Origin: an uncultured Clostridia bacterium
GTDB lineage: Bacteria; Bacillota; Clostridia; Christensenellales; Borkfalkiaceae
NCBI GenBank assembly: GCA_947631465.1
Contig: CANRLK010000003.1
Location: forward strand, 701 to 64,700
Direction of reading: 5' to 3'
DNA: 64,000 nucleotides
The position numbers and the translations under genes were made by a program. Of this stretch, positions 49,218 to 64,000 are shown one piece after another; positions within the stretch are counted from its first letter, which is position 1; each line of letters starts with the position of its first letter. The notes under the pieces were generated by a model. That model worked only from the letters and a program-made list of their open reading frames with translations. It was not told the origin of the DNA and searched no databases.

Positions 49218-49288
49218 GGGAAGGAGCTCTCATAAAAAGCCCGCATAGAACGGGGCGGCTTCCTCATAATATAGAGTGAGGGGGGAAC

Positions 49289-49396: not shown

Positions 49397-49397
49397 G

Positions 49398-50284: not shown

Positions 50285-52078
50285 ATGAAAGCGAAAAGAT
50301 TCTGGCTTGTTCTGCTTGCGATTCTTTCCGTGCTTTGCATGTCGCTTGCGATCGCAGGCTGCGGAGAAGAAGCGGAAGTTACGCCCAATCTCGACGATTT
50401 TACGAGACCCAAGCATGAGCATACCTTCTCCGAATGGGAGATCGTAACGCCCGTTCAACAGTGCAGCGAGGAAGACGGCCTGAGAAGACGTCGTTGCACC
50501 GACCCCGAGTGCACCACCGAGGGCGGTTTTGTCGAAGAGGAAGTGATTCCCGCGATCGGACACGACAAGGAGATCGTTAACAGAAAAGAGCCCACTTGCA
50601 TCGATGGCGGTTGGAACGAATATTGGAAATGCAAAAAGTGCGGCGCGTCCGACTATGAGGACCAGAAGATCGGTCCGCTCGGTCACGATTGGAGAACGAT
50701 CGAGGCGCAAGAGGCGACCTGCTATCAAGAGGGCTGGGAGGAGCACGAAGAGTGCTACCGTTGCCATAAGACGCAGGGCAACTTCACCATTCATCCCATC
50801 ACAGCTCATGATTATTCGATCGAGAGAGACGGTTTCCACTACTGCTCGATGTGCGGTCAGCCTCAACTCGACGAGACCCCGAACCTCACTTATCGTGTCG
50901 CGGAGGACGGAAAGTCTTACATCGTCACGGGTTATCAGAAGAAGGACGGAAAGATCCTCGACGAGACTGGCAAAGTCTATGAATATCAAGATGCCACGCT
51001 CGAAGCGGACGAGAATTGCAATCTCTATGTGGTAAACGGCGATCAAAGGGAGCAGATCGATTATCACAGGATGATGTCGCTCGTCATTCCCGACAAGCAT
51101 AAAGAAGGCAATTTGGAGCTTCCCGTCTCGGCGATCGATGGGGAAGCATTCAAGGAATGCAAATTCATCACCCGCGTTGTGACGGGCACCAATGTCACGA
51201 CGATCGGCAGAGAGGCGTTCACGCAGTGCAACAACCTCACCGAGATCACGCTCGGACCGAACACCACGACGATCGATTCGTCCGCATTCAGCTATTCGAA
51301 TGTGGAATCGATTAACTTCCCGAGAAAAGTCAACTCGATCGGGATGATGCCGTTTGCATACTGCCCGAGGTTTACGAAGATCACGGTCGATTCCAAGAAC
51401 AACACCTACATCTGCGAAGGCAACTGCGTCATCAGCAGAGCATCCGATACGATCGTCCTCGGCTGCGGCGGAAGCGTCATTCCCGAGAGTGCGAAATACA
51501 TCGGTACTTGGGCGTTCGGCATGTGCCCGAGCCTGAAAAAGATCGATACAAAGAACGTCGAGCAAATTTATCCTCAGGCATTCATGCTCGATTCGAATCT
51601 TGAAGAGGTCGTCATCTCCGACAAATGCGAATTTATCGACGCGAATGCATTCTACGGTTGTGCAAGTCTTTTCAATCTCGAACTCGGGGCCGGGCTTACG
51701 AGAATCGGCAACGCCGCATTTGCAAACTGCAAAAAGCTGAAAGTGGTCAAATACAACGGCACGCAAACGCAGTTCCTCGACGGAACGCATTTCATGCGCG
51801 GCGAGCACTGGGACTTCGACGACGGACTTGTCGATGAGGACGGCAATTACAATGAAGACGGGCAGGCGAAGTGGACGCGCCGTACCTATCTCGTCCAATT
51901 GAAAAACGCGCAGTACTTGATGGCGAGCGCAGACGGATACGAGTCTTGCACCAAGGAACAGGCGGAAGCGTTCCTGGCGCAGATCGAGAGCAAAGATCCC
52001 GAGCAGTCTGAGGATACGGGTTCTGAAAACGAAGGCGGCGGGGAACAAGGATCGGAAGATACGGGTTCCGAGGCATAA
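50285..52078 (+). CDS. Lipoprotein with Cys-rich GH..W/..TC..G..C..C repeats and BspA-type LRRs (597 aa)
   Basis: It has the lipobox LAIAGC. About 3 Cys-rich repeats follow, then LRR_5-like units (IGREAFTQCNNLTEITL, IGNAAFANCKKLKVV). The tail is acidic. Confidence 0.9.
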   Translation: MKAKRFWLVLLAILSVLCMSLAIAGCGEEAEVTPNLDDFTRPKHEHTFSEWEIVTPVQQCSEEDGLRRRRCTDPECTTEGGFVEEEVIPAIGHDKEIVNRKEPTCIDGGWNEYWKCKKCGASDYEDQKIGPLGHDWRTIEAQEATCYQEGWEEHEECYRCHKTQGNFTIHPITAHDYSIERDGFHYCSMCGQPQLDETPNLTYRVAEDGKSYIVTGYQKKDGKILDETGKVYEYQDATLEADENCNLYVVNGDQREQIDYHRMMSLVIPDKHKEGNLELPVSAIDGEAFKECKFITRVVTGTNVTTIGREAFTQCNNLTEITLGPNTTTIDSSAFSYSNVESINFPRKVNSIGMMPFAYCPRFTKITVDSKNNTYICEGNCVISRASDTIVLGCGGSVIPESAKYIGTWAFGMCPSLKKIDTKNVEQIYPQAFMLDSNLEEVVISDKCEFIDANAFYGCASLFNLELGAGLTRIGNAAFANCKKLKVVKYNGTQTQFLDGTHFMRGEHWDFDDGLVDEDGNYNEDGQAKWTRRTYLVQLKNAQYLMASADGYESCTKEQAEAFLAQIESKDPEQSEDTGSENEGGGEQGSEDTGSEA

Positions 52079-52110
52079 AAGATTGCCGCTGAAAGGATAG
52101 CGGTGGATTC

Positions 52111-52146
52111 GCCGCCGACGGCTGAGCCGTCGGCGGCGTTGTTTCA
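52111..52146 (+). terminator. Intrinsic terminator
   Basis: GCCGCCGACGGC-tga-GCCGTCGGCGGC is followed by GTTGTTTC. Confidence 0.85.
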
Positions 52147-52170
52147 AATATAAAAAACGGAGAGGAAAAG

Positions 52171-53289
52171 ATGGTTTTTGAAAAAGTAAAGAAAAATTTC
52201 GGGTTCGGCTGCATGCGGCTGCCGATGAAGGACGGCGAGGTGGACAAAGCGGAGTTCTGCCGCATGACGGACGCCTTTTTGGAAGCGGGGTTCAACTATT
52301 TTGACACGGCGCACGGGTATCTCGACGGCAAGAGCGAGAAAGCGATCCGAAAGTGCGTGACTTCCCGCTACCCGCGCGAGAGCTACACGCTCACGAACAA
52401 GCTCACGTCCATGTTCTTCCATACGCAAGAGGACATCCGTCCGCTCTTTTTCGATCAACTCAAAATTTGCGGCGTGGAGTATTTCGATTTCTATCTCATG
52501 CACGCGCAAAATTCTGTGTTCTTCGAAAAATACAAGTGCCAAAAGGCATACGAGACGGCGTTCCGTCTCAAAGAAGAGGGCTATATCGGACACGTCGGCA
52601 TTTCCTTCCACGACAAAGCGGAAGTGCTCGACAAGATCTTGACCGAATACCCCGAGATCGAGCTCGTCCAGATTCAATTCAACTACATCGACCTTGAAAA
52701 CCCGAGCGTCGAATCGCGGCTTTGCTATGAAGTATGCCGAAAGCACCAAAAGCCCATTGTCGTGATGGAGCCCGTCAAAGGCGGCATGCTCGTGGGGCTT
52801 CCCCCCGCCGCGGACAAGATCTTGAAGGATTTGGGCGGCGGCTCGAACGCGAGCTATGCGCTCCGTTTCGGCGCGGGCTTCGAAGGCGTGTTCATGACCC
52901 TCTCGGGCATGAGCAATTTGGCGCAAATGCAGGATAATTTGCAGACCATGTCCAATTTTACCCCGCTTTCAAGCGCGGAACGCGAAGCGATCGAGCAGGT
53001 GCGAAGGATACTTCTCAGCGGCGACGAGATCGCCTGCACGGGCTGCCGCTATTGCGTGAGCGGATGCCCCAAGCACATCCCGATCCCCGAGCTCTTCTCG
53101 TGCATGAACCAAAATAAACGGTATTTTGGTCGCGATTGGAACAGCACGGTCTATTATAATACCTATACCAAGACGCGCGGCAAGGCGGGGGATTGCGTTG
53201 AATGCGGCAAGTGCGAGTCGGTTTGCCCGCAGCATTTGCCCATCCGAAAGCTCCTCAAAGACGTCGCCGCCCACTTCGAGACCAAATAA
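52171..53289 (+). CDS. Aldo/keto reductase fused to a C-terminal 4Fe-4S ferredoxin domain
   Basis: The N-terminal region is AKR-like (GFGCMRLP, DTAHGY). The C-terminal region carries CTGCRYCVSGCP and CVECGKCESVCP. Confidence 0.88.
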   Translation: MVFEKVKKNFGFGCMRLPMKDGEVDKAEFCRMTDAFLEAGFNYFDTAHGYLDGKSEKAIRKCVTSRYPRESYTLTNKLTSMFFHTQEDIRPLFFDQLKICGVEYFDFYLMHAQNSVFFEKYKCQKAYETAFRLKEEGYIGHVGISFHDKAEVLDKILTEYPEIELVQIQFNYIDLENPSVESRLCYEVCRKHQKPIVVMEPVKGGMLVGLPPAADKILKDLGGGSNASYALRFGAGFEGVFMTLSGMSNLAQMQDNLQTMSNFTPLSSAEREAIEQVRRILLSGDEIACTGCRYCVSGCPKHIPIPELFSCMNQNKRYFGRDWNSTVYYNTYTKTRGKAGDCVECGKCESVCPQHLPIRKLLKDVAAHFETK

Positions 53290-53310
53290 TATTATTTAAA
53301 GGAGAACATT

Positions 53311-53898
53311 ATGGAAAAAACCATTCAAAAGACGATCGTCTGCAAGACTTGGAAAACCAAGACCGTGGCGGGATTGATCGCGCTGTGTGCCGCGGTCGCT
53401 CTGCCGCAGGTCTTTCACCTGTTGGGCATGGCGTTTCATGCGGGCTCGGCGCTCGGCGAGATGTTTTTGCCCATGCACCTTGCGATCTTTTTCGTCGGGT
53501 ATCTCGCGGGCGCGTTCGCAGGCGGGTTTGCGGGGGTATTCGCGCCGCTTGTCAGTTACCTTTTGACGGGACTTTGGGGCTCGCCCATGCCCGCCCTGCC
53601 CATGTTGCCGTACATGATGATCGAGCTGTGCGTCTACGGGCTCGTCACGGGACTGTTCGCGCAAAAGGCGAGCAAAGTGCCCGTCATTTTGAGCCTGCTC
53701 ATCGCCCAGATCGCGGGCAGAGCCGTCCGCGCGCTTGCGATCGTCATCGGTTTTTACGCCTTTTCGTCGGCAGTGCCCGTCTCGGCGATCTGGACGAGCA
53801 TTTCCGCGGGGATTGCGGGACTTGTTTTGCAATGGGTCTTGATCCCCTTGACGATGTTCCTCATCGGAAGAAAACAACGCCGTGACGAAAATGAATGA
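53311..53898 (+). CDS. ECF-transporter S-component-like membrane protein
   Basis: It is 195 aa with about 6 TM segments. The substrate is unknown. Confidence 0.55.
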   Translation: MEKTIQKTIVCKTWKTKTVAGLIALCAAVALPQVFHLLGMAFHAGSALGEMFLPMHLAIFFVGYLAGAFAGGFAGVFAPLVSYLLTGLWGSPMPALPMLPYMMIELCVYGLVTGLFAQKASKVPVILSLLIAQIAGRAVRALAIVIGFYAFSSAVPVSAIWTSISAGIAGLVLQWVLIPLTMFLIGRKQRRDENE

Positions 53899-54304
53899 CT
53901 TGGACCGCGCGAAAGCGCTTTTGAAGGCAGACCAAACGCGCACCTGCGCTTTTGTCTGCGGGAAGGAAGAACTGACGGATACCCGCCGCGGGGTCGCTCC
54001 GCTTCTCGATCTGATCGACTCGGGCAAGGATTTTTCCGCCTTTTCCGCTGCCGATAAGGTCGTCGGACGCGGCGCTGCGCTCCTGTACGCCTATCTCAAA
54101 ATCAAGTGCCTTTACGCGTCGGTTTTGAGCAAGAGCGCCCTCGAAGTTCTCAGTTATCACAAGATTTCTTGTGAATATGATACTTTGGCGGAGGGGATCA
54201 TGAATCGGGCGCATGACGGGCCTTGTCCGATGGAGCGGGCTACTGAGGGGGTGTTTGACCCCCGCGAGGCTTTGAAGTTGATACGACGGGCGCTCTTTTC
54301 ATAA
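53882..54304 (+). CDS. DUF1893 (TM1506-like) protein
   Basis: The pattern TCAFV...RGVAPLLDL...ADKVVGRGAALL...GPCPME was recognised from memory. Confidence 0.7.
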   Translation: MTKMNDLDRAKALLKADQTRTCAFVCGKEELTDTRRGVAPLLDLIDSGKDFSAFSAADKVVGRGAALLYAYLKIKCLYASVLSKSALEVLSYHKISCEYDTLAEGIMNRAHDGPCPMERATEGVFDPREALKLIRRALFS

Positions 54305-54529
54305 ACTTCGCAGGTGGTCGGTCTTATAGCCGTCGAAATACTGTGTCGCGTTGCGGCAACCCTCAGTCATTTACGTCTTTGTAAACTCCCTCGGGTTTTC
54401 CTCACGCTCCTTGTCTTTCTCGGCTCTAAAACGACCACCTTCGGGGAATTCTTCTTGATTGTATTCCCTTCAAGTTTTCCGCGCGCTCCTCGATCTGCTC
54501 GTTTCTGAAAAGAGTAACGGTTGCGAGCT

Positions 54530-54830
54530 TGAAATAAGGTGGGCGCAATGCGCTTTTTATGCCACCCCTTTCGGCGCAAAGCAACGCGCCACTTTCCCCT
54601 CAAAGGGGACAGCAAGGAGAGCCGTAATGCTCATCCCACCCCCCTTGGCTCCCCCTTTGAGGGGGAGCTGGCGCGAAGCGCCTGAGGGGGTGTCATTACA
54701 AATCAACGGCGCGAAGCAGAATCGCCATTCTGCATTGCGCTTGCAGCGGGGGCGACCGCCGCAAGGCTAAGCGAAACGCCTGAGGAGGTGTTGCCTTATC
54801 ATCTTGGCTTCCCCTCGGACGCTGTGGAAG
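54530..54830. repeat. Array D of the hairpin repeat family (inverted orientation)
   Basis: At 54639-54694 the reverse complement matches the core, including the hairpin GGCGCgaaGCGCC. At 54540-54620 the reverse complement matches the CCTTGCTGTCCCCT..AGGGG..TGGCGCG module seen at 87-205. A degenerate core lies at 54770-54800. Confidence 0.8.
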
Positions 54831-54926
54831 GCGTGTTCAGTCACAACAATAACCGCATTTTTGCACTCATTTTCAATAAAATAAACAAAATCTCAAATCT
54901 TTCCATTTAAGGAAAAATATTTCTCA

Positions 54927-54958
54927 CGATCGAAATTTCACAATTTCGGTCGTTTTTT
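54927..54958 (+). terminator. Intrinsic terminator 620 nt downstream of the nearest + strand stop codon
   Basis: CGATCGAAAT-ttcaca-ATTTCGGTCG pairs at 9 of 10 positions. It is followed by TTTTTT. Confidence 0.7.
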
Positions 54959-55098
54959 GTCTTTTCTGCCACGAAATATGGGGTCGAATTATGATAAATA
55001 CCCCAATATTATGAGTTTCGTGACGATTTTGTGAAAAGTATAAGGATTTTTTATGAAGCGTTTAAGAAAAAGTTATGATATTTTCTTTTGAAGAAGTA

Positions 55099-55128
55099 TT
55101 GACAGAAAGGCCCGAAATGACTTATAAT
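55099..55128 (+). promoter_or_regulatory. Promoter of the giant lipoprotein gene
   Basis: TTGACA (55099-55104), an 18-nt spacer and TATAAT (55123-55128). The surrounding sequence is AT-rich. Confidence 0.65.
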
Positions 55129-55158
55129 AAAGAAAATATTAAAGTGAAGGAGTGTAAT

Positions 55159-58100
55159 ATGAAACGGAAAGTATGGATTACATTGCTACTTGTCCTTACA
55201 GCCGCTCTCGGCTTGGTAGCATTTACTTCATGCAAACCCAAAGACAACCCCGTCAATGTCACTGACATTGAAGGTGCAGAGTCCGGGACTTATTACTTCG
55301 ATGTTTCGAGCGAAGAAGAGTATGATCTATCGCTCAGCAACGGGAATAAGTTCACTTTGCTCATGCGGGATGTCACCCGAGCTGGCGAATACACGCTGGA
55401 CGGGGAAAAGCTCACGCTCAATTTCAGCGAGCCGTACACCCAAACGGTGGAAGCGACTTACCGAAATGGCGAGATCACGCTTACATATAACAATCTCACG
55501 ATGAGATTCATCAAGAAGATCTACTTCACCGTCAGCTTCGATACGCATGGCGGCAGTAGCGTCTCTTCGATAAGTGTGGTCAACGGCAGATCGATCGGCA
55601 AGGTCACCGATCCCGAAAGAGAAGGATACACGTTCCTCGGCTGGTACACGGACGAGGCTTATTCGACGTCTTTCGCATTCGATTCGCAGCCTGTCACGGG
55701 GGACATCACCCTGCATGCGCGTTGGCAGGCAGCGGCTGCGGGCGCGGGCTTCAAGGTCAGCTTCGACTTGAACTACGACAATGCTCCCACCCTTGACCCT
55801 GTCACGACGGTCGGCGGCAAGATCCTCGATCTTCAAGACCCGAGACGCGAGGGCTTCCTCTTCGCGGGCTGGTATGTCAGCCAATACGGCAGCAAGGATC
55901 AGCTCTCCTATGCGGTCGATTCGAACACGGTGATCAAGGAAAACGTCACGCTCTATGCGACATGGGAAGAGCCCGGCAACAGCGGCAAGCTTCAAATGCC
56001 GCGCGTCGGCGTGACCGAGCAGGGACTTTCCTGGAACGCGGTCGGTGCGAACACCTACGTTATCACGGTGAAAGGTCCTGCGGGCTTTGTTGAAGTCAAC
56101 GAATCGACGACTTCGACGAGCTTCCCGATCGAGTTTGCGACCGCACCCGCGGGCGAGTATACCATTACCGTCCAAGGCACGGCGTCGAACACGGCGAACA
56201 ATTCGAACGTTGTCACGCTCCGCTACAAGAACAAGGCGCTTGCGCGCGTTTCCCTCTTCGAGGTCGTTTCGCCCGCAACCTTGCTCTTCAATGCCGTCGA
56301 TCATGCACGGGAATATCTCATTTCCATCGATTGCGGCAACAAGAAGCATGTACATACCGCAGTCAGCAACGGCAATTCCACCTATTATAACTTTGCGAAT
56401 TGCTCCATGCAGAAGGGCGGCATCAAGTTCCGCGTCACGGCGCGGGCAAACGGCTATGTCGAATCCGTCTCCGAGGAATTTGCCTATGAGCGGAATCTTG
56501 ACGCCGTAACGAACGTTCGCGTTGACGACAACCAGCTCCTTTCGTGGGATGCGGTCCAAGGCGCGACAAACTACATCTTGTCCATTACCTGCTCGAACGG
56601 CGCGCACGAACACAGCCGCGTCGACGTCGGCAATGCGACGAGTTACAGCCTCAAAGAATGCGGCAAGGGCGAAGTCAAAGTCACCATCACGGCGACGACG
56701 AAGGGCTACAATGCCGCAGATCCCGTCGAGTACAGCTACAATAAGGCGACGATCGCGTCTCCTTCGCACTTCCTTTTGAAGGGCACGACCCTTTCTTGGG
56801 ACGCCGTCGAGGGTGCATCGACCTATACGCTCCGCATTGCGGGCAAGACCTACACGACCGATAAGAATAGCTTTGATTTTGCTACGATTAAGGACATCTC
56901 GTGGTCGAGCGAGGAGGATTATCAAGCGAGCGTACAGGCGCTCACGGGCAACGATCCTTCGTCCAACTCGCTGTTCAGCGAGGGCGTTGACATGCGCTAT
57001 TACGCATTGTATTCGTCCCTTGACTACAACCGCAGCACGCTTTCTTGGCGGCACGTTATCGGCGTGACGAAATACGAAGTCAGCCTCAACGGCACTACGC
57101 TCGGCACTGTCGAAAACGGCGAAAACTTCTACAACATCAAGTTCACCAAAGCGGGCGAGAACACCCTTTCCGTTCGTTTCTTCGACGATGAATCGAACCT
57201 CGAAGGCTCCGATTGGGTCTCGATCGACGTGTTCGCCTACACCATCGAATTCGATACGCGCGGCGGCGGGGAAGTCGATTCGATCTATGTCGCATACGGC
57301 GACAAGCTCGAACTTCCGACGACCGAACGCCTCGGCTATGTGTTCGACGCTTGGTACAATGTTCCAGGCGGCGCAGAGAAGAACGGCGCGCCGTTTGACA
57401 GCGAGTACTATCTCGAAGCGACGGACATCCGTCTCTATGCAAGCTACGATTCCAAGGAATACACCGTCAAATACGTCTACGGCGACAGCCGCGACGAGGA
57501 ATCGAACCCTGCGAAGAAAGAGGGCAAGGTGCTCTACGGCAAGCAGTACACGCTCGATGTTCCCGCTGCACCCGACCAGACCGTCGTGTTCCTCGGCTGG
57601 TTCAGCAAGGCAGACGGCCGCGGCGTCCGTTATACGGATGAAAAGGGCAACAGCCTCCGCACGTGGGCGATCGCAGACAACGGCACGGAAGTCTTTGCTT
57701 ACTTTGCGAAGACTTTGAGCTACACGCTCGTGAATAACGAGTATTACAGTGTTTCGGCAGGTCCCGGTCTTGTTCTTTTGGACGAGGTCACGATCCCCAA
57801 GGAATATAATGACCTTCCCGTCAAGGCGATCCCCGGTTTTGCATTCCTCAATGCGACGACGTTGAAGAGGATTCACATCCCCGATTGCATCAACAATCTC
57901 AACCTTGACGCATTCAAGGGCTGCACGAAGATCGAAGAATTTGATATTTACGATGCAGGCACGGCGGCCTCGGACGTCATGTTCAGGTCGAACAGCGGCG
58001 TCATTTCCATCAAGGAAAACAATACTTGGACGCTTTACCTCTATCCCGTTGCGAGATCGGGCGATTTCATCATTCCCGATGACATCACCGCAATCGCGCC

Positions 58101-61100
58101 CGGGTTCTTCTCGGGCTCGCGGATCACGAAGCTCACCGTCCCCGCAGGGGTCAACGACGTTTCGTTGGAAACCTTCAAGGATTGCCTCTATTTGAGAGAA
58201 GTCGTCTTTGAAGATTCGTCGGAAGAAGGCGCAGAGCTTTCGATCTACACGGGTGCATTCACAAACTGCCCTGCGCTTCGCACGGTCACGTTCCCGAAGC
58301 AGCTCAAAACGTTCGGCGCAGTCAGCGGCGACGATCAGACGGGCGTCAACACAGGGAAAGCGGGCGTATTTGTCAACTGCAACCGTTTGGAGAATGTCTT
58401 GATGAGCGGCGCGGGCAACTACGGATTCACCGTTGTAGACGGCATGCTCATATATGAGCGCAACCTGATCTTCATCCCTGCGACGAAGGTCAGCGAGACC
58501 TTCACCGTTCCCTCGGGCATTACGGGGCTCGGCGACTACTTGTTCGAAAGAGCAGCGTATCCTTACAATGTAGAGATCCCCGCATGGGTCACCTACATCG
58601 GCAAGGACGCATTCCATGGCAACACAGGGCTTCAAACGGTCATCTTCAAGGCATCGTCGAGCGGTCTTGCGGCAAAGCTTGAAATCGGTGAAGAGGCATT
58701 CTTCAACTGCGCAGCTTTGACGGAGATGACGTTCGAAGACGGCTGCGGCGTTCAGACGCTTGGAAAGCGCGCGCTCTATCAGTGCGACGCGCTCACGGCG
58801 CTCGAACTTCCGAACTCGCTCGAAGTCGTTGAAGACGAGGCATTCGGCTCTTGCAACGCGCTTGCAAGCATTAAGTTCAGAGAAGGCAGCGCGAAGCTCG
58901 AAATCGGCATGAGCATTTTCACCGACTGCACGTCTCTTGCGAAGATCGAACTTCCTTCGAGCATTTCCAAGATCGAATACGGCTCGTTCGAAGGCGCAAA
59001 CACGAATGAGATCGAAATCGCGCCTGGCGGCAAGTACTACGTAAGTGAGAAAAACGTCGTCTACGGCTTGAAAGACGGCGATGGCCACACGAAATACGAC
59101 CTCGTTTACTATCCGAAGAACCTCGATATGAAGGGCATCGATCTTCCCGAGACGCTTGAAAAGATCGGCGCGTTCGTATTCAGAGGCAACACGCAATTGA
59201 CGGAGATCAAGATCCCCAAGAATGTCAATTGGATCGGTTGGGAGGCATTCAGCGGCGCGACCAACCTCAAGAAGGTCACCTTCGATGGCAAGGAAACGGT
59301 CGCAAAGATCGAGTTTGCGGTCGCGGAATATACGGATCGGTCAGGAAATGCCATCGAGATGAGCTATGCGTTCCGCAACTGCACGTCGCTCAGCGAACTT
59401 GCACTTCCCAATAGCTTGGAAGTGATCCCGGGCGGCTTCCTGTACATGGATGTAAAGGGCGCATCGTCGCTCAGCGAGTTCACGATTCCCGAATCGGTGA
59501 AGACGATCGGCAACCAGGCGTTCTATCACTCGAACATCGAGGCCGTTGATATTACGGCGAAGGTTGAAACGATCGGCGATGAGGCGTTCTATGACGGCAA
59601 CATCACGTCGTTGGTGTTCGCAGGCGAGTCCTCGAACGCACCCGGCAGCGGGGAGGAATTTGTTCCCGTGGGCGATGACGGTGTTGCAGGCGCGCTTCAA
59701 AGCATCGGCGACCGCGCATTCTATGCTGCAAAGATCACGGCTTTGGATCTTCCCGACAGCTTGACGAAGATCGGCAGCAGCGCATTCCAGAATACGAGAA
59801 TCAACCGCCTTACCCTCGGCAAGGGCGTTGAAGAGATCGGCGACAGCGCATTCCAGGGCTGCACGGCGCTCTACGCTGTGACGATCAGCTCCGACATCGA
59901 AAAGATGGGTAGCAACGTATTCGGAAGCTGCTCTTCGCTCATTCAAATGAACTTCGGTGACGGCGTGAAAGTCATCCCGTCAGGGCTTATCAGCTATGAA
60001 ATGGCAATCAGCAGAGTCCACATTGCGGCGTCCGTTGAGAGGATCGCGAGGGGCGCTTTGAGTTCGTATCGGATCACGCAGGTTGACATTGACGATAACA
60101 GCAGCTTAACAACGATCGAGGACGGCGCGTTTGGAAGCAAAAGCGAAATGGGTGGTGGTAGCGGCGCTGGCATCAGTACATTGAAAGTACCTGAAAAAGT
60201 CACGACCATCGGCAATTACGCATTCTCGAATTGTTCGAGTCTTAGAACCGTCACGCTCCCGCTGTCCTTGACGAGTATCGGCGACAGCGCATTCGAGAGT
60301 TGCTGGCAGCTTACAACTGTCAACTTCACGGGCGGCACGGAAGCGGCGGATGGTCTTACCCTCGGTTCGTATGTGTTCAAGAGCTGCAGTAGCCTTACTA
60401 CGATCACCCTTCCCAAGACGGTAAATGAGATCGGCGATAACCTTTTCGAGGAATCGGGCGTCACGAGTCTCACGTTCGCGGAAGGCAGCGACGGTCGTTT
60501 CCAAGTGGATAGCGGCATCGTTTATGACAAAGACAAGAAGACGCTCTACTTCGCGCTTCCTCAAACGTCGGGCAGCGTGCAGATCCCTGCCAGCGTCGAG
60601 TACATCAACGACCATGCCTTCACGGGTACGCAGGTCTCGACTGTCACGTTCGACAGCAATGGAAGCAATAGCGTCCTTCACATCGGCAGCAAGGCGACGA
60701 TCGAAGATAACGGTTCGTTCAAGGGCGACAGCGAGCACGGCGCGTTCCAGCAAGCATATAGCCTCAGCTCGGTCACTTTCCCGACGGGCCGCGAAGTTTG
60801 GATCGGCGGCTACGCATTCAGCAACAGCGGCCTTTCGACCGTAACACTTGGCGGGACCAAGCACATCGGTAATAACGCATTCCAGAGCTCGAGTTTGACG
60901 AAAATCGAGCTTCCCGAAGGGTTGGAAGATCTCGGCGACTATGCGCTTGCAAACCTCTCTTCTCTCAGCAGCGACGATGGCAAGCTTGAATTCCCTGCAA
61001 GCCTGAAAAAGCTTGGTAAGAATGTATTCGAATCCGCTAATTTTAAGAGTGTCAAGTTCGCCGAGAATGGCCAGTTGACTGTGATCAACGAGGGGGCATT

Positions 61101-64000
61101 CGCTACCGCATTCGGCAACTTGGGGTCTTCAACTCCAAAGGTCGACGAGATTGTGATCCCCGATTATGTCACGAGAATCGAAAAGGATGCATTCCATGGG
61201 GCAGCAGTCAAAAAGTTCGTGATCGGCAAGAATGTAGATGAGATCGGAGAAAGTGCATTCAATTACTGCCTTGCAACGGAAGAGATCGAGTTCGAGAAAG
61301 ATAACACCGCACTGAAAACGATCGGCGTGAGCGCATTCCGTGAGGCAAAGGGCATCAAGACGATTTCGAATGTTCCCAAGAGCGTGACGAAGATCGGCGA
61401 CAATGCATTCAGAGGCTGCTCTAAACTCGTAACGCTCGAGTTTGAAAAAGACGGCACGGATGCGCTTATCATCGGCGATCCGAATAGCACTGCGCAGAGC
61501 AAGTGGAATGTGTTTGAAGGCTGTACGTCCTTGACGGAAGTCGAGCTTCCTTCGCGCGTTACCACCATCACGCCGTACCTCTTCTCGGGCTGCACAAAGC
61601 TTCAAAAGGTGACTTTGCCCAATGCGCTCACCTTGATCCCCGAGTACACGTTCCTGAATTGCACTTCGCTTAAAGAAGTGGACTTCCCCGAAAACAGCGT
61701 GTTGACCGAGATCGGCGAACAGGCATTCATGAACAACAAGCTCACGAGCTTCAAACTTCCCAAGACCGTTACGAAGATCGGGTATCAGGCGTTCTACGGC
61801 TTCGGCGGTGATGGGCTCGAGTTCGAGATCGAAGTGGACGAAAAGACCAACAAGAGCGACCTTGAGACGATCGAAAAAGAGGCGTTTGCGAGTTCGAAGA
61901 TCCAGGAGTTTGACTTCTCCAAGACGAAGGTCAAGACTTTCGAATCGGGAACGTTTGCGGATTGCGCGCAGTTGAAGACGATCAATCTCGAAGGGCTCAA
62001 CTTTGTCCCGCAACAGGCATTCAGAAACTGCCAGCAGCTTTCCGAAATCACTTGGGGTACGACCATTACCTCCATTGAAAACGGTGCGTTCTGGAACTGC
62101 AAGGCGATCACGGAATTGGATCTTCCCGCACAGATCGAAGCCGTCGGCTCTTTCAGCAGCAGCGCACAGATGGAGAGCTACTACGGCGAGGGAAAGGAGC
62201 ACTATGTCGGCGCGTTCGAAATGACGGGCATCACGAGCGTTGACTTCTCGCATGCCGACGCACTCAAAACCATCGGCAGCGGCGCGTTCTACGGAACGCA
62301 GCTCGAAGGCGAAATCGAACTTTCCGATCACTTGGAGCGTCTTTGCCCCTTCGCGTTCGGGAACACGAAGATCACCAAGCTCGATCTTCCGTCCACGTTG
62401 CAAGCCGTAAGCTATCAGGTGACGAGCGGAACCGCTTATGTCTATATCTCAAACAGCACGTTGAGTATCCCGACCCTTGAAGAGATCAATATCAGAGAAG
62501 GGGAAGGCAGTTACTCCTCGATCGACGGCGTGCTCTATTATAGCAGCGCGAATAGCGATAGCAAAGTCCTTATGGTATGGCCTGTTGCAAAGGATGCGAC
62601 CCTCGACGAGACGGAAGTTAAGAAGTACTTCGATGGCGTCACGCAGGTCTACGACTACGCGTTCTATAAGAATGCGGGCCTTGAAGACAAGGAAGTCGAC
62701 CTTTCGGGTACGGAAGTCACGCGGTTCGGCACGAACTCCATTGCAGAAACGGGCGTGAAGAGCCTCAAGCTTCCCGGGGCGACCCTTAGCGAATATGCGT
62801 TTGCCAATAACACGAAGCTCGAAAAGGTTGAATTTGTCGACGGCGACGGAACGGAGACCTTCGCACAGAGTCCCTTCTCTGCGGACAACAGGAACATCGG
62901 CGGAGCGAGAAATAGCGGCTGCCCTGCATTGACGGAGATCAAACTTCCCGAAGATCTTACGGCGATCCCCGCTTCCTTCCTGAGCGGCACGAAGGTCGAG
63001 TCCATCGACGTTCCCGCAAATGTCACCTCGATCGGCAATTACGCATTTGCGATCGCATCGCTTACAAAAGTCAACTTTGCGAATGAAGAAGACAGACAGG
63101 AAGGCGCGCAGCTCGTATTGGGCAATTACGTCTTCCAGAACTCCTCGATCACGGAGATCACGCTTCCCGAGCGCACGACCTTCGCGATCAACAGCAGCAG
63201 CACCTACCCCTATGAAGGGAACGGCGTGTTCCAGGGCTGCAAGTCACTTACAAAAGTAACGCTCCCTGAGAGCATCCCTTACCTCAACGGCAACTTCTTT
63301 AAGGATTGCGAAAAGCTCACGACGATCGTTGGGCTTGAAAAGTTGGATCTCGATTGGATCGAGAACGGTGTGTTCGAGGGCTGCACTATGCTCGTAACGG
63401 GCAAGGAAAAGGCAGAAGGCGGAGAGAGCACAGAGGACGACGATTGGATGGTCCTCAACGTTGCAGAGTTGAAAGACGGCATTATAATCAGTAAGAACTC
63501 CATGTTCGCGAACTCGGGCATCAAGAAGTTGAAGTTCACTTCGAAGCTCACATTGATCGATTCTTACCAGCTCAGCGTGAATACCGCGCTCGAAGAAGTC
63601 GATATGAGCGCAGCGACCAATGTCCATATCAGCTGTGATATCTTCAACGGCGACTCGAATCTGAAATCCGTCAAATTCCCGAAGGGCGACGTCGAATGGG
63701 TAACGTTCCCGAGTCAGTCGACGATCGGCAGCGCGGCGAACCTCGAAACCGTCGAAATCGGCGCAAACGTCACGACCCTTCCCGACTACTTCACGGACGA
63801 AAACGGCACGCCGAAACTCAAAGAAGTAAAGATTCAAACGGGAGAAGGCGAGACTTCGCAGCTTCGTACCATCGGCGCGTATGCGCTCCAAGGCATGAGA
63901 GCGGAGGAGGGTATCGAAAGCTTCACCCTTCCCGCAACCGTTGAAACGCTCGGCGAAGGCGCGTTCAGCGGAAGCGCTATCAAGAAGATCGAGTTCGAAG
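55159..64000 (+). CDS. Giant surface lipoprotein, at least 2947 aa, 3'-truncated by the window: flg_new repeats, Fn3-like modules and a very long BspA-type LRR (LRR_5) region
   Basis: This ORF is not in the supplied track. The SD GAAGGAG at 55146-55152 precedes the ATG at 55159. I read every frame-1 codon from 55159 to 63999 and found no stop. It has a signal peptide with Cys (LVAFTSC). It contains GYTFLGWYTDEAY and GFLFAGWY, four LSW(D/N)AV.GA..Y modules, and dozens of units of the type IG..AF..C..L..(I/V). Confidence 0.93.
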   Translation, partial: MKRKVWITLLLVLTAALGLVAFTSCKPKDNPVNVTDIEGAESGTYYFDVSSEEEYDLSLSNGNKFTLLMRDVTRAGEYTLDGEKLTLNFSEPYTQTVEATYRNGEITLTYNNLTMRFIKKIYFTVSFDTHGGSSVSSISVVNGRSIGKVTDPEREGYTFLGWYTDEAYSTSFAFDSQPVTGDITLHARWQAAAAGAGFKVSFDLNYDNAPTLDPVTTVGGKILDLQDPRREGFLFAGWYVSQYGSKDQLSYAVDSNTVIKENVTLYATWEEPGNSGKLQMPRVGVTEQGLSWNAVGANTYVITVKGPAGFVEVNESTTSTSFPIEFATAPAGEYTITVQGTASNTANNSNVVTLRYKNKALARVSLFEVVSPATLLFNAVDHAREYLISIDCGNKKHVHTAVSNGNSTYYNFANCSMQKGGIKFRVTARANGYVESVSEEFAYERNLDAVTNVRVDDNQLLSWDAVQGATNYILSITCSNGAHEHSRVDVGNATSYSLKECGKGEVKVTITATTKGYNAADPVEYSYNKATIASPSHFLLKGTTLSWDAVEGASTYTLRIAGKTYTTDKNSFDFATIKDISWSSEEDYQASVQALTGNDPSSNSLFSEGVDMRYYALYSSLDYNRSTLSWRHVIGVTKYEVSLNGTTLGTVENGENFYNIKFTKAGENTLSVRFFDDESNLEGSDWVSIDVFAYTIEFDTRGGGEVDSIYVAYGDKLELPTTERLGYVFDAWYNVPGGAEKNGAPFDSEYYLEATDIRLYASYDSKEYTVKYVYGDSRDEESNPAKKEGKVLYGKQYTLDVPAAPDQTVVFLGWFSKADGRGVRYTDEKGNSLRTWAIADNGTEVFAYFAKTLSYTLVNNEYYSVSAGPGLVLLDEVTIPKEYNDLPVKAIPGFAFLNATTLKRIHIPDCINNLNLDAFKGCTKIEEFDIYDAGTAASDVMFRSNSGVISIKENNTWTLYLYPVARSGDFIIPDDITAIAPGFFSGSRITKLTVPAGVNDVSLETFKDCLYLREVVFEDSSEEGAELSIYTGAFTNCPALRTVTFPKQLKTFGAVSGDDQTGVNTGKAGVFVNCNRLENVLMSGAGNYGFTVVDGMLIYERNLIFIPATKVSETFTVPSGITGLGDYLFERAAYPYNVEIPAWVTYIGKDAFHGNTGLQTVIFKASSSGLAAKLEIGEEAFFNCAALTEMTFEDGCGVQTLGKRALYQCDALTALELPNSLEVVEDEAFGSCNALASIKFREGSAKLEIGMSIFTDCTSLAKIELPSSISKIEYGSFEGANTNEIEIAPGGKYYVSEKNVVYGLKDGDGHTKYDLVYYPKNLDMKGIDLPETLEKIGAFVFRGNTQLTEIKIPKNVNWIGWEAFSGATNLKKVTFDGKETVAKIEFAVAEYTDRSGNAIEMSYAFRNCTSLSELALPNSLEVIPGGFLYMDVKGASSLSEFTIPESVKTIGNQAFYHSNIEAVDITAKVETIGDEAFYDGNITSLVFAGESSNAPGSGEEFVPVGDDGVAGALQSIGDRAFYAAKITALDLPDSLTKIGSSAFQNTRINRLTLGKGVEEIGDSAFQGCTALYAVTISSDIEKMGSNVFGSCSSLIQMNFGDGVKVIPSGLISYEMAISRVHIAASVERIARGALSSYRITQVDIDDNSSLTTIEDGAFGSKSEMGGGSGAGISTLKVPEKVTTIGNYAFSNCSSLRTVTLPLSLTSIGDSAFESCWQLTTVNFTGGTEAADGLTLGSYVFKSCSSLTTITLPKTVNEIGDNLFEESGVTSLTFAEGSDGRFQVDSGIVYDKDKKTLYFALPQTSGSVQIPASVEYINDHAFTGTQVSTVTFDSNGSNSVLHIGSKATIEDNGSFKGDSEHGAFQQAYSLSSVTFPTGREVWIGGYAFSNSGLSTVTLGGTKHIGNNAFQSSSLTKIELPEGLEDLGDYALANLSSLSSDDGKLEFPASLKKLGKNVFESANFKSVKFAENGQLTVINEGAFATAFGNLGSSTPKVDEIVIPDYVTRIEKDAFHGAAVKKFVIGKNVDEIGESAFNYCLATEEIEFEKDNTALKTIGVSAFREAKGIKTISNVPKSVTKIGDNAFRGCSKLVTLEFEKDGTDALIIGDPNSTAQSKWNVFEGCTSLTEVELPSRVTTITPYLFSGCTKLQKVTLPNALTLIPEYTFLNCTSLKEVDFPENSVLTEIGEQAFMNNKLTSFKLPKTVTKIGYQAFYGFGGDGLEFEIEVDEKTNKSDLETIEKEAFASSKIQEFDFSKTKVKTFESGTFADCAQLKTINLEGLNFVPQQAFRNCQQLSEITWGTTITSIENGAFWNCKAITELDLPAQIEAVGSFSSSAQMESYYGEGKEHYVGAFEMTGITSVDFSHADALKTIGSGAFYGTQLEGEIELSDHLERLCPFAFGNTKITKLDLPSTLQAVSYQVTSGTAYVYISNSTLSIPTLEEINIREGEGSYSSIDGVLYYSSANSDSKVLMVWPVAKDATLDETEVKKYFDGVTQVYDYAFYKNAGLEDKEVDLSGTEVTRFGTNSIAETGVKSLKLPGATLSEYAFANNTKLEKVEFVDGDGTETFAQSPFSADNRNIGGARNSGCPALTEIKLPEDLTAIPASFLSGTKVESIDVPANVTSIGNYAFAIASLTKVNFANEEDRQEGAQLVLGNYVFQNSSITEITLPERTTFAINSSSTYPYEGNGVFQGCKSLTKVTLPESIPYLNGNFFKDCEKLTTIVGLEKLDLDWIENGVFEGCTMLVTGKEKAEGGESTEDDDWMVLNVAELKDGIIISKNSMFANSGIKKLKFTSKLTLIDSYQLSVNTALEEVDMSAATNVHISCDIFNGDSNLKSVKFPKGDVEWVTFPSQSTIGSAANLETVEIGANVTTLPDYFTDENGTPKLKEVKIQTGEGETSQLRTIGAYALQGMRAEEGIESFTLPATVETLGEGAFSGSAIKKIEFE

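What the first reader, a model, noticed from the sequence alone, without database searches (positions are those of the whole stretch)
55159..64000. Open reading frame of at least 2947 codons, missing from the ORF track: a giant flg_new / Fn3-like / BspA-LRR lipoprotein
**The gap in the track.** Across 55.3-63.9 kb the supplied track lists only minus-strand ORFs (up to 1289 aa) and short off-frame + ORFs.

**The ORF.** I read frame 1 codon by codon from the ATG at 55159 to 63999 and found no stop. The SD GAAGGAG lies 6 nt upstream. The translation is clearly protein-like.

**Domain order:**
- a signal peptide with a lipobox-like FTSC;
- two Listeria-Bacteroides repeats (GYTFLGWYTDEAY.., GFLFAGWYVSQY..);
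- four modules carrying LSW(N/D)AV-GA-xY (Fn3-like);
- two more flg_new repeats (GYVFDAWY.., VVFLGWFS..);
- from about 57.7 kb to the window end, an uninterrupted run of BspA-type LRR units (..IG..AF..C..L..I.LP..).

**Context.** The gene runs off the window, so its true size is larger. Together with 26040-29543 and 50285-52078, about 14 kb (22%) of this window encodes lipoproteins built from the same domain vocabulary.
Basis: seen in the sequence. Interest (0 to 1): 0.62.

Follow-up and report, generated by a model that had tools for sequence, protein, structure and literature searches.

The report
Giant leucine-rich-repeat surface lipoprotein gene
This is a real, transcribed gene for a very large cell-surface lipoprotein (about 3,800 amino acids, three quarters of it inside the window) of an uncultured rabbit-gut Clostridia bacterium; it belongs to a large, generically annotated and unstudied family, so it is a sound annotation fix rather than a new kind of biology.

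Summary
**Observation confirmed.** Frame 1 from the ATG at 55159 to 63999 has no stop in 2,947 codons. The ORF list omits it only because it runs off the window.

- signal peptide and lipobox Cys25;
- a small lipocalin-like β-domain;
- 2 Flg_new repeats;
- 5 (not 4) Fn3-fold modules, seen by structure prediction only, not by Pfam;
- 2 more Flg_new repeats, the last below Pfam's cutoff;
- about 55 BspA-type LRR units, arranged in blocks.

**Full length.** Syntenic orthologues are complete at 3,782 and 3,987 aa, and a 79%-identical relative is 3,722 aa. About 830 residues therefore lie beyond the window. The relatives have no C-terminal anchor.

**Expression.** The gene has its own perfect, conserved σ70-type promoter. 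It is covered in two metatranscriptomes in which most neighbouring genes are not.

**Family.** At least 134 distinct representatives share the whole 880-aa N-terminal architecture. One Fn3 module carries a near-invariant Cys-His-His-Cys-Met set that no profile library recognises.

**Verdict.** Most likely a lipid-anchored stalk-plus-LRR adhesin. It is a new member of a known kind, of modest interest.

The parts
54926..54953 (+). Terminator-like hairpin followed by a T-run. It closes the upstream transcription unit, so the giant gene is a unit of its own.
   Evidence: 12-pair stem, T-run. RNA contigs show no coverage over 54000-55001.
55099..55128 (+). Sigma-70-type promoter TTGACA-18 nt-TATAAT, matching 12 of 12 consensus positions
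   Evidence: Both hexamers and the SD are conserved in orthologous loci L004 and L007 although the proteins are only about 44% identical.
55146..55152 (+). Shine-Dalgarno GAAGGAG, 6 nt before the ATG
   Evidence: conserved in L004 and L007
55159..64000 (+). Coding sequence of the giant lipoprotein: codons 1-2947 of a predicted ~3,770-3,790. It is truncated by the window end.
   Evidence: no stop. Colinear alignment to P0362 (3,722 aa) and P0363 (3,782 aa) leaves 825-839 residues beyond the window. An X1 contig continues 244 nt past the window end.
55159..55233 (+). Signal peptide MKRKVWITLLLVLTAALGLVAFTS plus lipobox Cys25 (aa 1-25)
   Evidence: The Cys column is conserved in alignment A1. A lipobox-like Cys occurs in 110/134 family representatives. 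This is the only strongly hydrophobic segment.
55273..55521 (+). N-terminal eight-stranded beta domain (aa 39-121), possibly lipocalin-like
   Evidence: AF2 model shows strands 43-119 at pLDDT 82-87. Only sub-threshold Pfam hits: DUF4923 at 0.02, Lipocalin_4 at 0.045.
55522..55974 (+). Flg_new (Listeria-Bacteroides / InlB B-repeat) repeats 1 and 2 (aa 122-272)
   Evidence: Pfam PF09479 at 4.8e-20 and 1e-10; PDB 2y5p InlB B-repeat hit
55975..57234 (+). Five tandem Fn3-fold modules A-E (aa 273-359, 360-446, 447-531, 532-620, 621-692)
   Evidence: AF2 model is all-beta, pLDDT mostly 80-95. Foldseek hits tandem FnIII arrays. Module B alone: pLDDT 89.6, best hits are C. thermocellum Fn3 modules. 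No Pfam hit reaches threshold.
56332..56409 (+). Near-invariant site in Fn3 module B: C392-G393-x3-H397-x-H399 ... C415-x-M417
   Evidence: Invariant in alignment A1. All five residues present in 145/154 family proteins and lost together in three. Module B is the most conserved region, 93% and 80% identical to P0362 and P0363. Unrecognised by Pfam, NCBIfam or PDB sequences.
57235..57732 (+). Flg_new repeats 3 and 4 (aa 693-768 and 769-858). The fourth is divergent.
   Evidence: Pfam PF09479 at 1e-9 for repeat 3; 0.0078 (16.7 bits, below cutoff) for repeat 4. Beta structure in the AF2 model.
57733..63999 (+). BspA/TpLRR-type leucine-rich-repeat region (aa ~860-2947). About 55 recognisable 21-24-aa units with consensus TLPKSVTTIGDYAFSGCTALT, arranged in about 15 blocks.
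   Evidence: Pfam LRR_5 at 5.6e-267, 16 stretches. PDB sequence hits 4fs7, 4gt6, 4h09, 6mlx, 4cp6. Unit count by self-trained HMM. DNA repeats only 60-79% alike.
50285..52078 (+). Conserved syntenic partner: a 597-aa LRR_5 lipoprotein (lipobox IAGC). It is not part of the gene but is found upstream of the giant gene in relatives too.
   Evidence: Pfam LRR_5 at 7.9e-39; lipobox. LRR_5 genes of 615 and 589 aa sit in the same position in L004 and L007. Small RNA contigs cover it in X4 and X7.

Best explanation
**What it is.** The window holds the first ~78% (2,947 of a predicted ~3,780 codons) of one chromosomal gene. It encodes a giant cell-surface lipoprotein of an uncultured, spore-forming gut Clostridia bacterium found in rabbit gut metagenomes.

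**How it most likely works.**
1. The gene is transcribed from its own conserved sigma-70-type promoter. Motif, conservation and in-situ RNA are shown.
2. The protein is exported by its signal peptide. It is lipidated on Cys25 by Lgt, cleaved by Lsp, and held in the outer leaflet of the cytoplasmic membrane by its N-terminus. This step is inferred from the sequence pattern and its conservation.
3. The next ~830 residues form a string of about 12 small beta domains: one lipocalin-like domain, two Flg_new repeats, five Fn3-fold modules and two more Flg_new repeats. The folds are shown by profile matches and by prediction. Its role as a stalk carrying the rest of the protein through and beyond the cell wall is inferred.
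4. The distal ~2,900 residues are BspA/TpLRR-type leucine-rich repeats, about 55 units in the window and 76-80 in full-length relatives. They run to a small C-terminal cap with no second anchor.
5. By analogy with BspA, LrrA, Slr/HupY and PcpA, these LRR solenoids are the ligand-binding part. They would make a multivalent adhesin for host, dietary-particle or other microbial surfaces. This is inferred.

The membrane-proximal part is conserved and the distal LRR part diverges fastest. That fits an exposed binding or antigenic surface.
For: **Gene is real.**
- The frame is open, with an SD and a perfect promoter.
- The promoter and SD are conserved in L004 and L007.
- 28 of 40 listed strain variants are synonymous, 27 of 40 fall at third codon positions, and the strain indels listed in the RNA runs are in frame.

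**Transcribed in situ.**
- RNA contigs start at 55167 and 55185.
- Over window 40-60 kb, besides GAPDH only this gene is covered continuously in two metatranscriptomes.

**Domains.**
- Pfam LRR_5 5.6e-267 and Flg_new 1.9e-35.
- PDB sequence hits to LRR_5 structures and to the InlB B-repeat.
- AF2 model with pLDDT 83.8, with Foldseek hits to FnIII arrays.

**Lipoprotein signal.** The lipobox Cys is conserved.

**Size and completeness.**
- Complete syntenic orthologues of 3,782 and 3,987 aa; a 3,722-aa relative with 79% N-terminal identity.
- 825-839 residues are missing from the window copy.
- The relatives have no LPXTG and no C-terminal hydrophobic segment.

**Family.** 134 representatives share the whole N-terminal architecture, with median length about 2,950 aa.

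**Divergence gradient.** Fn3-B is 93%/80% identical to P0362/P0363, against 44-49%/34% for the distal LRR region.

**Known functions of relatives.** BspA and LrrA bind fibronectin and fibrinogen and mediate co-aggregation (PMC2843621). Slr is an LRR lipoprotein that binds collagen I (PMC3105044), and HupY is an adhesin involved in heme utilisation (PMC6593403; both by title). Flg_new is used as a stalk domain and is enriched in gut-associated microbes (PMC9210967 and PMC9723798).
Against: - No ligand, localisation or lipidation has been tested, and the organism is uncultured.
- The lipobox FTSC is non-canonical at position -3. Close relatives have FASC, and more distant ones have the classic AAC/SAC forms.
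- The 3' end of this particular copy is not seen, so an inactivating mutation beyond the window cannot be excluded.
- Logan contig depth is a poor measure of expression.
- Matches to characterised adhesins (HupY/LrrG 278 bits against a cutoff of 1250) are partial LRR similarity only.
- LRR domains also serve non-adhesive roles.
- The conserved Cys/His/Met site has no place in a simple stalk model.
Confidence: 0.75

Rival explanations
1. The gene and architecture are the same, but the main role is not adhesion. It could capture or sense a small ligand or metal, as heme is captured in HupY. It could also form a protective or spacing coat on the cell surface. In that case the conserved Cys-His-His-Cys-Met site in Fn3 module B would be the functional core, and the LRR array mainly a scaffold.
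For: - Module B is the most conserved part of the protein. Its five residues are kept in 145/154 family members and lost together.
- HupY, an LRR_5 protein, is involved in heme utilisation (PMC6593403, by title).
- The gene appears relatively highly transcribed, as coat proteins often are.
Against: - No similarity to any known metal- or heme-binding domain.
- The Cys pair could simply be a structural disulfide.
- About 75% of the protein is LRR, and it diverges fast. That is more typical of a binding or antigenic surface than of a passive scaffold.
Confidence: 0.15
2. The protein is not lipid-anchored. The signal peptide is cut by signal peptidase I and the protein is released, or held non-covalently on the wall or on partner proteins.
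For: - The lipobox FTSC departs from the classic L-[AS]-[GA]-C.
- 24 of 134 representatives show no lipobox-like Cys in their first 60 residues.
- No other anchor is present.
Against: - The Cys column is conserved in nearly all N-terminally complete homologues, and most have canonical AAC/SAC/VAC boxes.
- Many of the 24 exceptions may be wrongly started or truncated gene calls. P0362, for example, is called 14 codons too early.
- Two other repeat proteins in the window have canonical lipoboxes, LAAC and IAGC.
Confidence: 0.08
3. The long frame is an artefact. It would be a chimeric assembly across similar LRR genes or a decaying pseudogene, or the real genes would be the minus-strand ORFs listed by the track.
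For: - Depth in the DNA runs is low (about 4-6x).
- Two odd joints appear inside the LRR region.
- Repeat-rich giant genes are often misassembled (bioRxiv 10.1101/2023.11.21.568195).
Against: - Independent contigs of two DNA runs tile the gene, many without any difference.
- The whole 2,947-aa frame aligns colinearly with complete proteins from independent assemblies.
- The DNA repeats are too diverged (60-79%) to confuse an assembler.
- The minus-strand ORFs have no Pfam hit. They stay open only because TTA, CTA and TCA make up 9 of 2,947 sense codons.
- The variants are mostly synonymous in the plus frame.
Confidence: 0.02

Closest known systems
BspA of Tannerella forsythia and LrrA of Treponema denticola (BspA/TpLRR-type LRR surface proteins; Pfam LRR_5)
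   Same: Same LRR type (LRR_5 at 870 bits), surface-exposed, and from host-associated anaerobes. These are known to bind fibronectin and fibrinogen, to mediate co-aggregation and to promote epithelial adhesion (PMC2843621).
   Different: - They come from diderm bacteria and are several-fold smaller (own knowledge).
- They have other anchoring and export routes, and no Flg_new/Fn3 stalk of this kind.
- Here the LRR region is about 2,900 aa, and the anchor is an N-terminal lipid.
Slr / LrrG / HupY of streptococci (NCBIfam NF047961) and PcpA of S. pneumoniae (PDB 4cp6)
   Same: Gram-positive surface proteins with LRR_5 units. Slr is a membrane-bound LRR lipoprotein that binds collagen I (PMC3105044), and HupY is an adhesin involved in heme utilisation (PMC6593403). 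Partial profile and PDB matches were found here.
   Different: - The score of 278 bits is far below the equivalog cutoff of 1250, with only partial coverage, so this is not an orthologue.
- Those proteins are several-fold shorter (the NF047961 profile is 978 positions).
- PcpA is held by choline-binding repeats (own knowledge).
Uncharacterised 'leucine-rich repeat protein' / 'InlB B-repeat-containing protein' entries from Clostridia MAGs (for example MCX4312394.1, 3,968 aa)
   Same: - Same family, with the whole 880-aa N-terminal architecture matched in one stretch at 36-79% identity.
- Lengths of 2,300-4,200 aa.
- P0363 is the syntenic orthologue.
   Different: Only sequence divergence separates them: 58.5% overall identity to the closest member (P0362) and 44% to the syntenic orthologue. 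None has been studied. The names are automatic.
Internalin B of Listeria monocytogenes
   Same: Shares the B-repeat (Flg_new) beta-grasp module (PDB 2y5p hit), and the general logic of an LRR binding domain combined with accessory beta domains.
   Different: - The internalin LRR is a different LRR class with its own cap and inter-repeat domain.
- The internalin_H profile scores 41.7 bits against a cutoff of 1050.
- InlB attaches by C-terminal GW modules (own knowledge).
Fibrillar adhesins (Monzon and Bateman, PMC9210967) and giant Clostridia proteins (bioRxiv 10.1101/2023.11.21.568195)
   Same: - The stalk-plus-binding-domain logic, with Flg_new used as a stalk domain.
- Gut Clostridia giant proteins with Listeria-Bacteroides repeats and LRRs are proposed to be adhesive, and are often fragmented in assemblies.
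   Different: - Polarity is inverted relative to the fibrillar adhesins analysed in that paper, whose cell-surface anchor lies distal to the N-terminus. Here the anchor and stalk are N-terminal and the binding region is C-terminal.
- At about 3,800 aa it is well below the 10,000-85,000 aa class of the giant-gene study.

Membership tests
BspA/TpLRR-type LRR proteins (Pfam PF13306 LRR_5) | LRR_5 profile match above the gathering score | tested here: met
   870.3 bits against a cutoff of 27.7, 16 stretches
BspA/TpLRR-type LRR proteins (Pfam PF13306 LRR_5) | Sequence similarity to solved LRR_5 structures | tested here: met
   4fs7 1.1e-35, 4gt6 3.3e-31, 4h09 3.9e-22, 6mlx TpLRR 1.9e-17, 4cp6 PcpA 3.9e-14
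BspA/TpLRR-type LRR proteins (Pfam PF13306 LRR_5) | Binding of host matrix proteins or other cells | not testable with these tools
   Needs protein and binding assays
Listeria-Bacteroides repeat / InlB B-repeat (Pfam PF09479 Flg_new) | Profile match above the gathering score for each proposed repeat | tested here: met
   Repeats 1-3 score 71.9, 42.0 and 38.8 bits against a cutoff of 27. Repeat 4 scores 16.7 bits, so it is not met on its own.
Fibronectin type III (Pfam PF00041) | PF00041 profile match | tested here: not met
   No hit at E<=0.01 for the whole protein, and none at E<=10 for any single module
Fibronectin type III (fold level) | Seven-strand beta-sandwich fold resembling solved FnIII domains | tested here: met
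   AF2 pLDDT 83.8 and 89.6. Foldseek hits to fibronectin, LAR and contactin FnIII arrays at E 5e-11 to 1e-5. Module B gives TM 0.5-0.72 to Fn3 domains. This rests on a predicted structure, not a solved one.
Bacterial lipoproteins (Lgt/Lsp substrates) | Positively charged n-region, hydrophobic h-region, and a lipobox ending in Cys within about 15-35 residues of the start | tested here: met
   MKRK + an uncharged stretch of about 20 residues + FTS-C25. The Cys is conserved in the family, in 110/134 representatives. No SignalP or LipoP was available.
Bacterial lipoproteins (Lgt/Lsp substrates) | Actual diacylglyceryl modification and Lsp cleavage | not testable with these tools
   Biochemical test needed
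HupY/LrrG adhesin (NCBIfam NF047961, equivalog) | Whole-protein score above the curated cutoff | tested here: not met
   278.3 bits against a cutoff of 1250
Gli349 gliding protein (NCBIfam NF045861) | Whole-protein score above the curated cutoff | tested here: not met
   136.1 bits against a cutoff of 1750
Class 1 internalins (NCBIfam NF033188) | Whole-protein score above the curated cutoff | tested here: not met
   41.7 bits against a cutoff of 1050, over the B-repeat region only
Sortase-anchored fibrillar adhesins | C-terminal LPXTG sorting signal with a hydrophobic tail | tested here: not met
   No LPXTG-like motif and no C-terminal hydrophobic segment in the full-length relatives P0362 and P0363. 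The window copy's own C-terminus is not seen.
Giant Flg_new/Fn3/LRR_5 lipoprotein family of gut Clostridia (defined here) | Single colinear match over the whole 880-aa N-terminal architecture, followed by a long LRR_5 tail | tested here: met
   134 representatives at 36-79% identity. The window copy is colinear over all 2,947 aa with P0362 and P0363.
Giant Flg_new/Fn3/LRR_5 lipoprotein family of gut Clostridia (defined here) | C-G-x3-H-x-H ... C-x-M site in the second Fn3 module | tested here: met
   Present at C392/H397/H399/C415/M417, and in 145/154 family proteins

The most novel reading that the evidence does not exclude
The second Fn3 module carries a near-invariant Cys-Gly-x3-His-x-His ... 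Cys-x-Met cluster. By Fn3 topology these residues should lie together at one pole of the domain, in the C-C' hairpin and the E-F loop.

The most novel reading is that this is a previously undescribed metal- or cofactor-binding Fn3 variant. It would then be the defining functional core of a large family (at least 134 clusters at 50% identity) of 2,300-4,200-aa lipoproteins found in uncultured gut Clostridia. In that case these proteins would do more than adhere. They might capture a metal, sense redox state, or lock onto a partner near the membrane.
Probability: 0.2. Interest if true: 0.55.

Novelty: new member of a known kind. Interest (0 to 1): 0.3.

Why it matters
**Annotation.** An 8.8-kb stretch that looked like a gap filled with spurious antisense ORFs is one gene, and about 14% of the window.

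**Biology.** It adds an expressed example to a large but unstudied family of very large surface lipoproteins of uncultured gut Clostridia. Such proteins are probably major determinants of how these bacteria attach within the gut and how they are seen by the host. They are systematically fragmented in short-read assemblies and capped out of some protein databases.

**Handles for experiment.** Three features give concrete starting points:
- the conserved synteny (small LRR lipoprotein, DUF1893, giant gene);
- the conserved promoter;
- the unannotated Cys/His/Met Fn3 module.

It does not change any general concept.

Tried and rejected
**Searches that failed or found nothing.**
- The whole-protein homology search timed out.
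- Scans of genome contigs and metagenome contigs with the last 400 aa found no same-sequence locus. The only hit was a 28%-identical Lachnospiraceae LRR gene.
- Exact look-up of a window protein found nothing on record.
- Rfam, tRNA and tandem-repeat searches of the region were empty.

**A misleading first impression.** The first homology search returned only fragments of 1,470 aa or less, on contigs mostly under 17 kb. That suggested no full-length relative existed. This was an artefact of that database. The exhaustive representative search found many relatives of 2,300-4,200 aa.

**A misleading alignment.** A MAFFT global alignment implied that only about 400 residues were missing. BLAST and a semi-global alignment give 825-839, and I use the latter.

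**Limits of the tools.**
- The sequence could not be extended past the window. An X1 contig runs 244 nt further, but its letters are not shown.

**Readings rejected.**
- The minus-strand ORFs as genes.
- Recent tandem LRR expansion.
- Membership of the HupY/LrrG, Gli349 or internalin families.
Full report
**1.
- Translating window 55159-63999 in frame 1 gives 2,947 codons without a stop. The nearest upstream in-frame stop is at 55063.
- From the window's base composition, the chance of such an open frame is about 3e-54.
- GC at codon positions 1/2/3 is 0.50/0.42/0.70, as expected for a coding frame in a 55% GC genome.
- GAAGGAG lies at 55146-55152, 6 nt before the ATG.
- The mechanical ORF list shows only minus-strand ORFs (up to 1,289 aa) and short off-frame plus-strand ORFs here. 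It does not list ORFs that run off the source.
- The antisense ORFs have no Pfam match. They stay open because TTA, CTA and TCA, the codons that read as stops on the opposite strand, make up only 9 of 2,947 sense codons.

**2. It is a real, constrained, transcribed gene.**
- A perfect sigma-70-type promoter (TTGACA-18-TATAAT, 12/12) sits at 55099-55128. A terminator-like hairpin at 54926-54953 closes the upstream unit.
- The promoter hexamers and the SD are almost unchanged in two orthologous loci whose proteins are only about 44% identical.
- The sequence is held by rabbit-gut metagenome runs: X1-X3 hold 0.6-0.9 of the sampled words. Two metatranscriptomic runs, X4 and X7, hold part of it.
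- DNA contigs of X1 and X2 tile the gene at about 4-6x depth, many without any difference. One contig continues 244 nt beyond the window end.
- RNA contigs begin at 55167 and 55185, with no coverage over 54000-55001.
- Over window 40-60 kb, only GAPDH and this gene are covered continuously in the RNA runs, plus small pieces of the 597-aa LRR paralogue. Genes such as phoH, era and recO are absent. That argues against DNA carry-over and for comparatively strong transcription. The caveat is that assembler depth is a poor expression measure.
- Of the 40 strain differences listed, 28 are synonymous and 27 fall at third codon positions. The strain indels listed in the RNA runs are in frame.

**3. 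Anatomy.** Coordinates are amino-acid positions.

| Region | What it is | Evidence |
|---|---|---|
| aa 1-25 | Signal peptide with a basic n-region, a hydrophobic stretch and FTS-Cys25 | |
| aa 39-121 | Eight-stranded beta domain; only sub-threshold lipocalin-like hits | |
| aa 122-272 | Two Flg_new repeats (4.8e-20, 1e-10) | |
| aa 273-692 | Five ~85-aa Fn3-fold modules A-E | |
| aa 693-858 | Two more Flg_new repeats; third 1e-9, fourth only 16.7 bits against a cutoff of 27 | |
| aa ~860-2947 | BspA/TpLRR-type LRRs | |

- **Fn3 modules.** Pfam does not recognise them. No PF00041 hit appears, and the best is Y_Y_Y at 0.0026 for module A. An AlphaFold2 model of aa 1-880 (17-sequence alignment, pLDDT 83.8) is all-beta. 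It matches tandem FnIII arrays of fibronectin, LAR and contactin at E 5e-11 to 1e-5. Module B modelled alone (pLDDT 89.6) best matches Clostridium thermocellum Fn3 modules. The fifth, module B, has Phe in place of the usual Trp.
- **LRR region.** LRR_5 scores 5.6e-267 over 16 stretches. PDB sequence hits include 4fs7, 4gt6, 4h09, TpLRR 6mlx and PcpA 4cp6.
- **LRR units.** A self-trained unit HMM finds about 55 units with consensus TLPKSVTTIGDYAFSGCTALT. They fall in about 15 blocks separated by 40-120-aa inserts, several of the 'DGVLY...L..YP' kind. The run is therefore long but not uninterrupted.
- **DNA repeats.** At DNA level the units are only 60-79% alike and there are no tandem arrays. 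The repeats are old, and slippage-type copy-number change is not favoured.

**4. What lies beyond the window.**
- The window's own proteins are not on record. The word-indexed protein database returned only fragments of 1,470 aa or less, so I went through neighbouring genes.
- LysRS from the window is 92% identical to one on a 66,065-bp contig of GCA_947630115.1. That contig is syntenic with the window.
- The DUF1893 gene just upstream of the giant ORF led to the same contig (L004). The gene order there is: LRR_5 lipoprotein (615 aa), aldo/keto reductase, ECF-type protein, DUF1893, then a giant Flg_new/LRR_5 gene of 3,782 aa. By coordinates, that gene ends about 415 bp before the contig end.
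- A second locus (L007) has an LRR_5 gene of 589 aa, then DUF1893, then a giant gene of 3,987 aa. It also ends inside its contig.
- The exhaustive representative search returned these and many more. P0362 is 3,722 aa, 79% identical over the N-terminal 880 aa and 58.5% overall. P0363 is 3,782 aa and is identical to the L004 gene.
- The window protein aligns colinearly, residue 1 to 2,947, with P0362 15-2897 and P0363 1-2943. That leaves 825-839 residues. The full gene is therefore predicted at about 3,770-3,790 codons (about 11.3 kb), of which the window holds about 78%.
- In the relatives the remainder is more LRR_5: 24 stretches and 76-80 units in all.
- They end in a short Trp-rich cap. Many family members share the form 'W..W...C.A.[IV].W'.
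- There is no LPXTG motif. The only strongly hydrophobic segment is the signal peptide.

**5. The family.**
- Of the best 150 cluster representatives (50% identity clusters), 134 match the whole 880-aa N-terminal architecture in essentially one stretch at 36-79% identity. Their median length is about 2,950 aa and the maximum is 4,231 aa.
- 110 of the 134 show a lipobox-like Cys within 60 residues of the called start. Some of the rest are probably mis-started calls. P0362, for example, is called 14 codons too early.
- Members sit on contigs up to 350 kb. The one member that carries a name is MCX4312394.1, 'MAG: leucine-rich repeat protein [Clostridia bacterium]', 3,968 aa. Fragments are named 'InlB B-repeat-containing protein', from Candidatus Scatosoma and Clostridiales MAGs.
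- The kind of protein is thus already in public databases under generic automatic names. I found no study of it.

**6.
- The invariant columns of the family alignment cluster in Fn3 module B: C392, G393, H397, H399, C415, M417 and G421.
- In an HMM-based alignment of 154 family proteins, all five of Cys-His-His-Cys-Met are present in 145. The three proteins that lack C392 also lack both His residues and C415.
- Module B is the most conserved region, at 93% and 80% identity to P0362 and P0363. The distal LRRs are at 44-49% and 34%.
- In the model, C392 ends strand C, H397 and H399 open strand C', and C415 and M417 lie in the E-F loop. In an Fn3 fold these elements meet at one pole.
- Neither Pfam, NCBIfam nor any PDB sequence recognises the module. 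Foldseek finds only ordinary Fn3 domains.
- It may be a metal or cofactor site, or a disulfide plus an HxH motif. I cannot tell which.

**7. How it most likely works.**
- Shown: the gene, its promoter, its in-situ RNA, the domain order, the absence of a C-terminal anchor in relatives, and the conservation gradient.
- Inferred step 1: Sec export, then Lgt/Lsp lipidation at Cys25, so that the mature N-terminus is held in the membrane.
- Inferred step 2: the about 12 small beta domains form a stalk through the wall. Flg_new is treated as a stalk domain in fibrillar adhesins (PMC9210967). Flg_new proteins are enriched in gut-associated microbes (PMC9723798).
- Inferred step 3: the distal LRR blocks bind ligands. 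BspA and LrrA bind fibronectin and fibrinogen and mediate co-aggregation and epithelial adhesion (PMC2843621). Slr is an LRR lipoprotein that binds collagen I, and HupY is an adhesin involved in heme utilisation (PMC3105044 and PMC6593403, by title).
- The faster divergence of the distal part fits an exposed binding or antigenic surface.

**8. Rivals.**
- A non-adhesive role centred on the module B site (0.15).
- Release rather than lipid anchoring (0.08).
- Assembly artefact, pseudogene or antisense genes (0.02).

The evidence for and against each is given in its own section.

**9. Comparison and novelty.**
- It is a member of the LRR_5 and Flg_new families by profile score.
- It has the Fn3 fold but fails the PF00041 profile.
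- It is not a member of the HupY/LrrG, Gli349 or internalin families, because all are far below their curated cutoffs.
- It is not a sortase-anchored adhesin.
- At about 3,800 aa it is far below the 10,000-85,000-aa 'giant gene' class. That study already notes gut Clostridia giants carrying Listeria-Bacteroides repeats and LRRs, and their fragmentation in assemblies (bioRxiv 10.1101/2023.11.21.568195).

I rate it a new member of a known kind, with interest 0.3. The value lies in the annotation fix, the expression evidence, the recovered full-length family and synteny, and the unannotated Cys/His/Met Fn3 module.

**10. The context claim.**
- The three genes do total 14,140 nt, or 22% of the window, and all three start with a signal peptide ending in a lipobox-like Cys (LAAC, IAGC, FTSC).
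- The 26040 protein shares only Flg_new repeats with the giant protein. The 50285 protein shares only LRR_5 units, at 24-26% identity.
- The rest of the window is ordinary chromosome: lysS, metG, pyrimidine genes, and the gap-yqfD-phoH-era-recO block.

Noticed in passing
window 54239-54791 (also 10-25, 200-215, 243-258, 607-622, 1948-1963, 3980-3995): A dispersed GC-rich intergenic element. The motif GCGCCTGAGGGGGTGT (up to 3 mismatches) occurs 9 times against 0.59 expected by chance. An imperfect 33-nt palindrome lies at 54585-54617 / 54643-54675. DNA contig depth is 24-30x at 54334-54667 against 4-6x in the flanks, with 'goes back' joints. It looks like a REP- or MITE-like multi-copy element and has no Rfam match.
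   Followed up: partly
window 55327-59196 (-), and 59341-59946, 60106-60864, 61129-62403, 63244-63891 (-): Long antisense ORFs (up to 1,289 aa) lie inside the giant gene. The two longest (1,289 and 424 aa), which were tested, have no Pfam match. They stay open in the codon-aligned antisense frame because TTA, CTA and TCA are almost unused in the sense frame (9 of 2,947 codons). They are by-products of codon bias, not genes.
   Followed up: yes
window 26040-29543 (+): An 1,167-aa lipoprotein (lipobox LAAC) with one clear Flg_new repeat. It then has roughly 800 aa of unannotated repeats of the form 'G.Y....L.LDG.G', which weakly resemble the giant protein's N-terminal domain. No Pfam family covers them.
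   Followed up: partly
window 59845 / 60904 and 61716 / 63741: In DNA runs X1 and X2 a contig joins 59845 to 60904 with 32 extra letters. The net change is -1,026 nt, or 342 codons, which is in frame, at depth about 5. This could be a co-existing shorter LRR allele or a cross-match between similar LRR motifs. A second joint, 61716 to 63741 (2,024 nt, not in frame, only 20 letters on one side), looks like an artefact.
   Followed up: no
window 50285-54304 with loci L004 and L007: Conserved gene neighbourhood. A small LRR_5 lipoprotein (597, 615 and 589 aa) and a DUF1893/TM1506 gene precede the giant gene in the window and in both relatives. L004 also keeps the aldo/keto reductase-ferredoxin gene and an ECF-type gene.
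   Followed up: partly
tool behaviour: The word-indexed protein search returned no protein longer than 1,470 aa. The exhaustive representative library holds many relatives of 2,300-4,200 aa. For giant proteins the first tool therefore shows only fragments and can wrongly suggest that no full-length relative exists.
   Followed up: yes
window 43064-50105: A typical Firmicute block: gap, (yabP), yqfD, phoH, a 7TM-HD hydrolase, (ybeY), era, recO. It includes the sporulation gene yqfD. The order is the same in relative L004, which marks the host as a spore-forming Clostridia lineage.
   Followed up: partly
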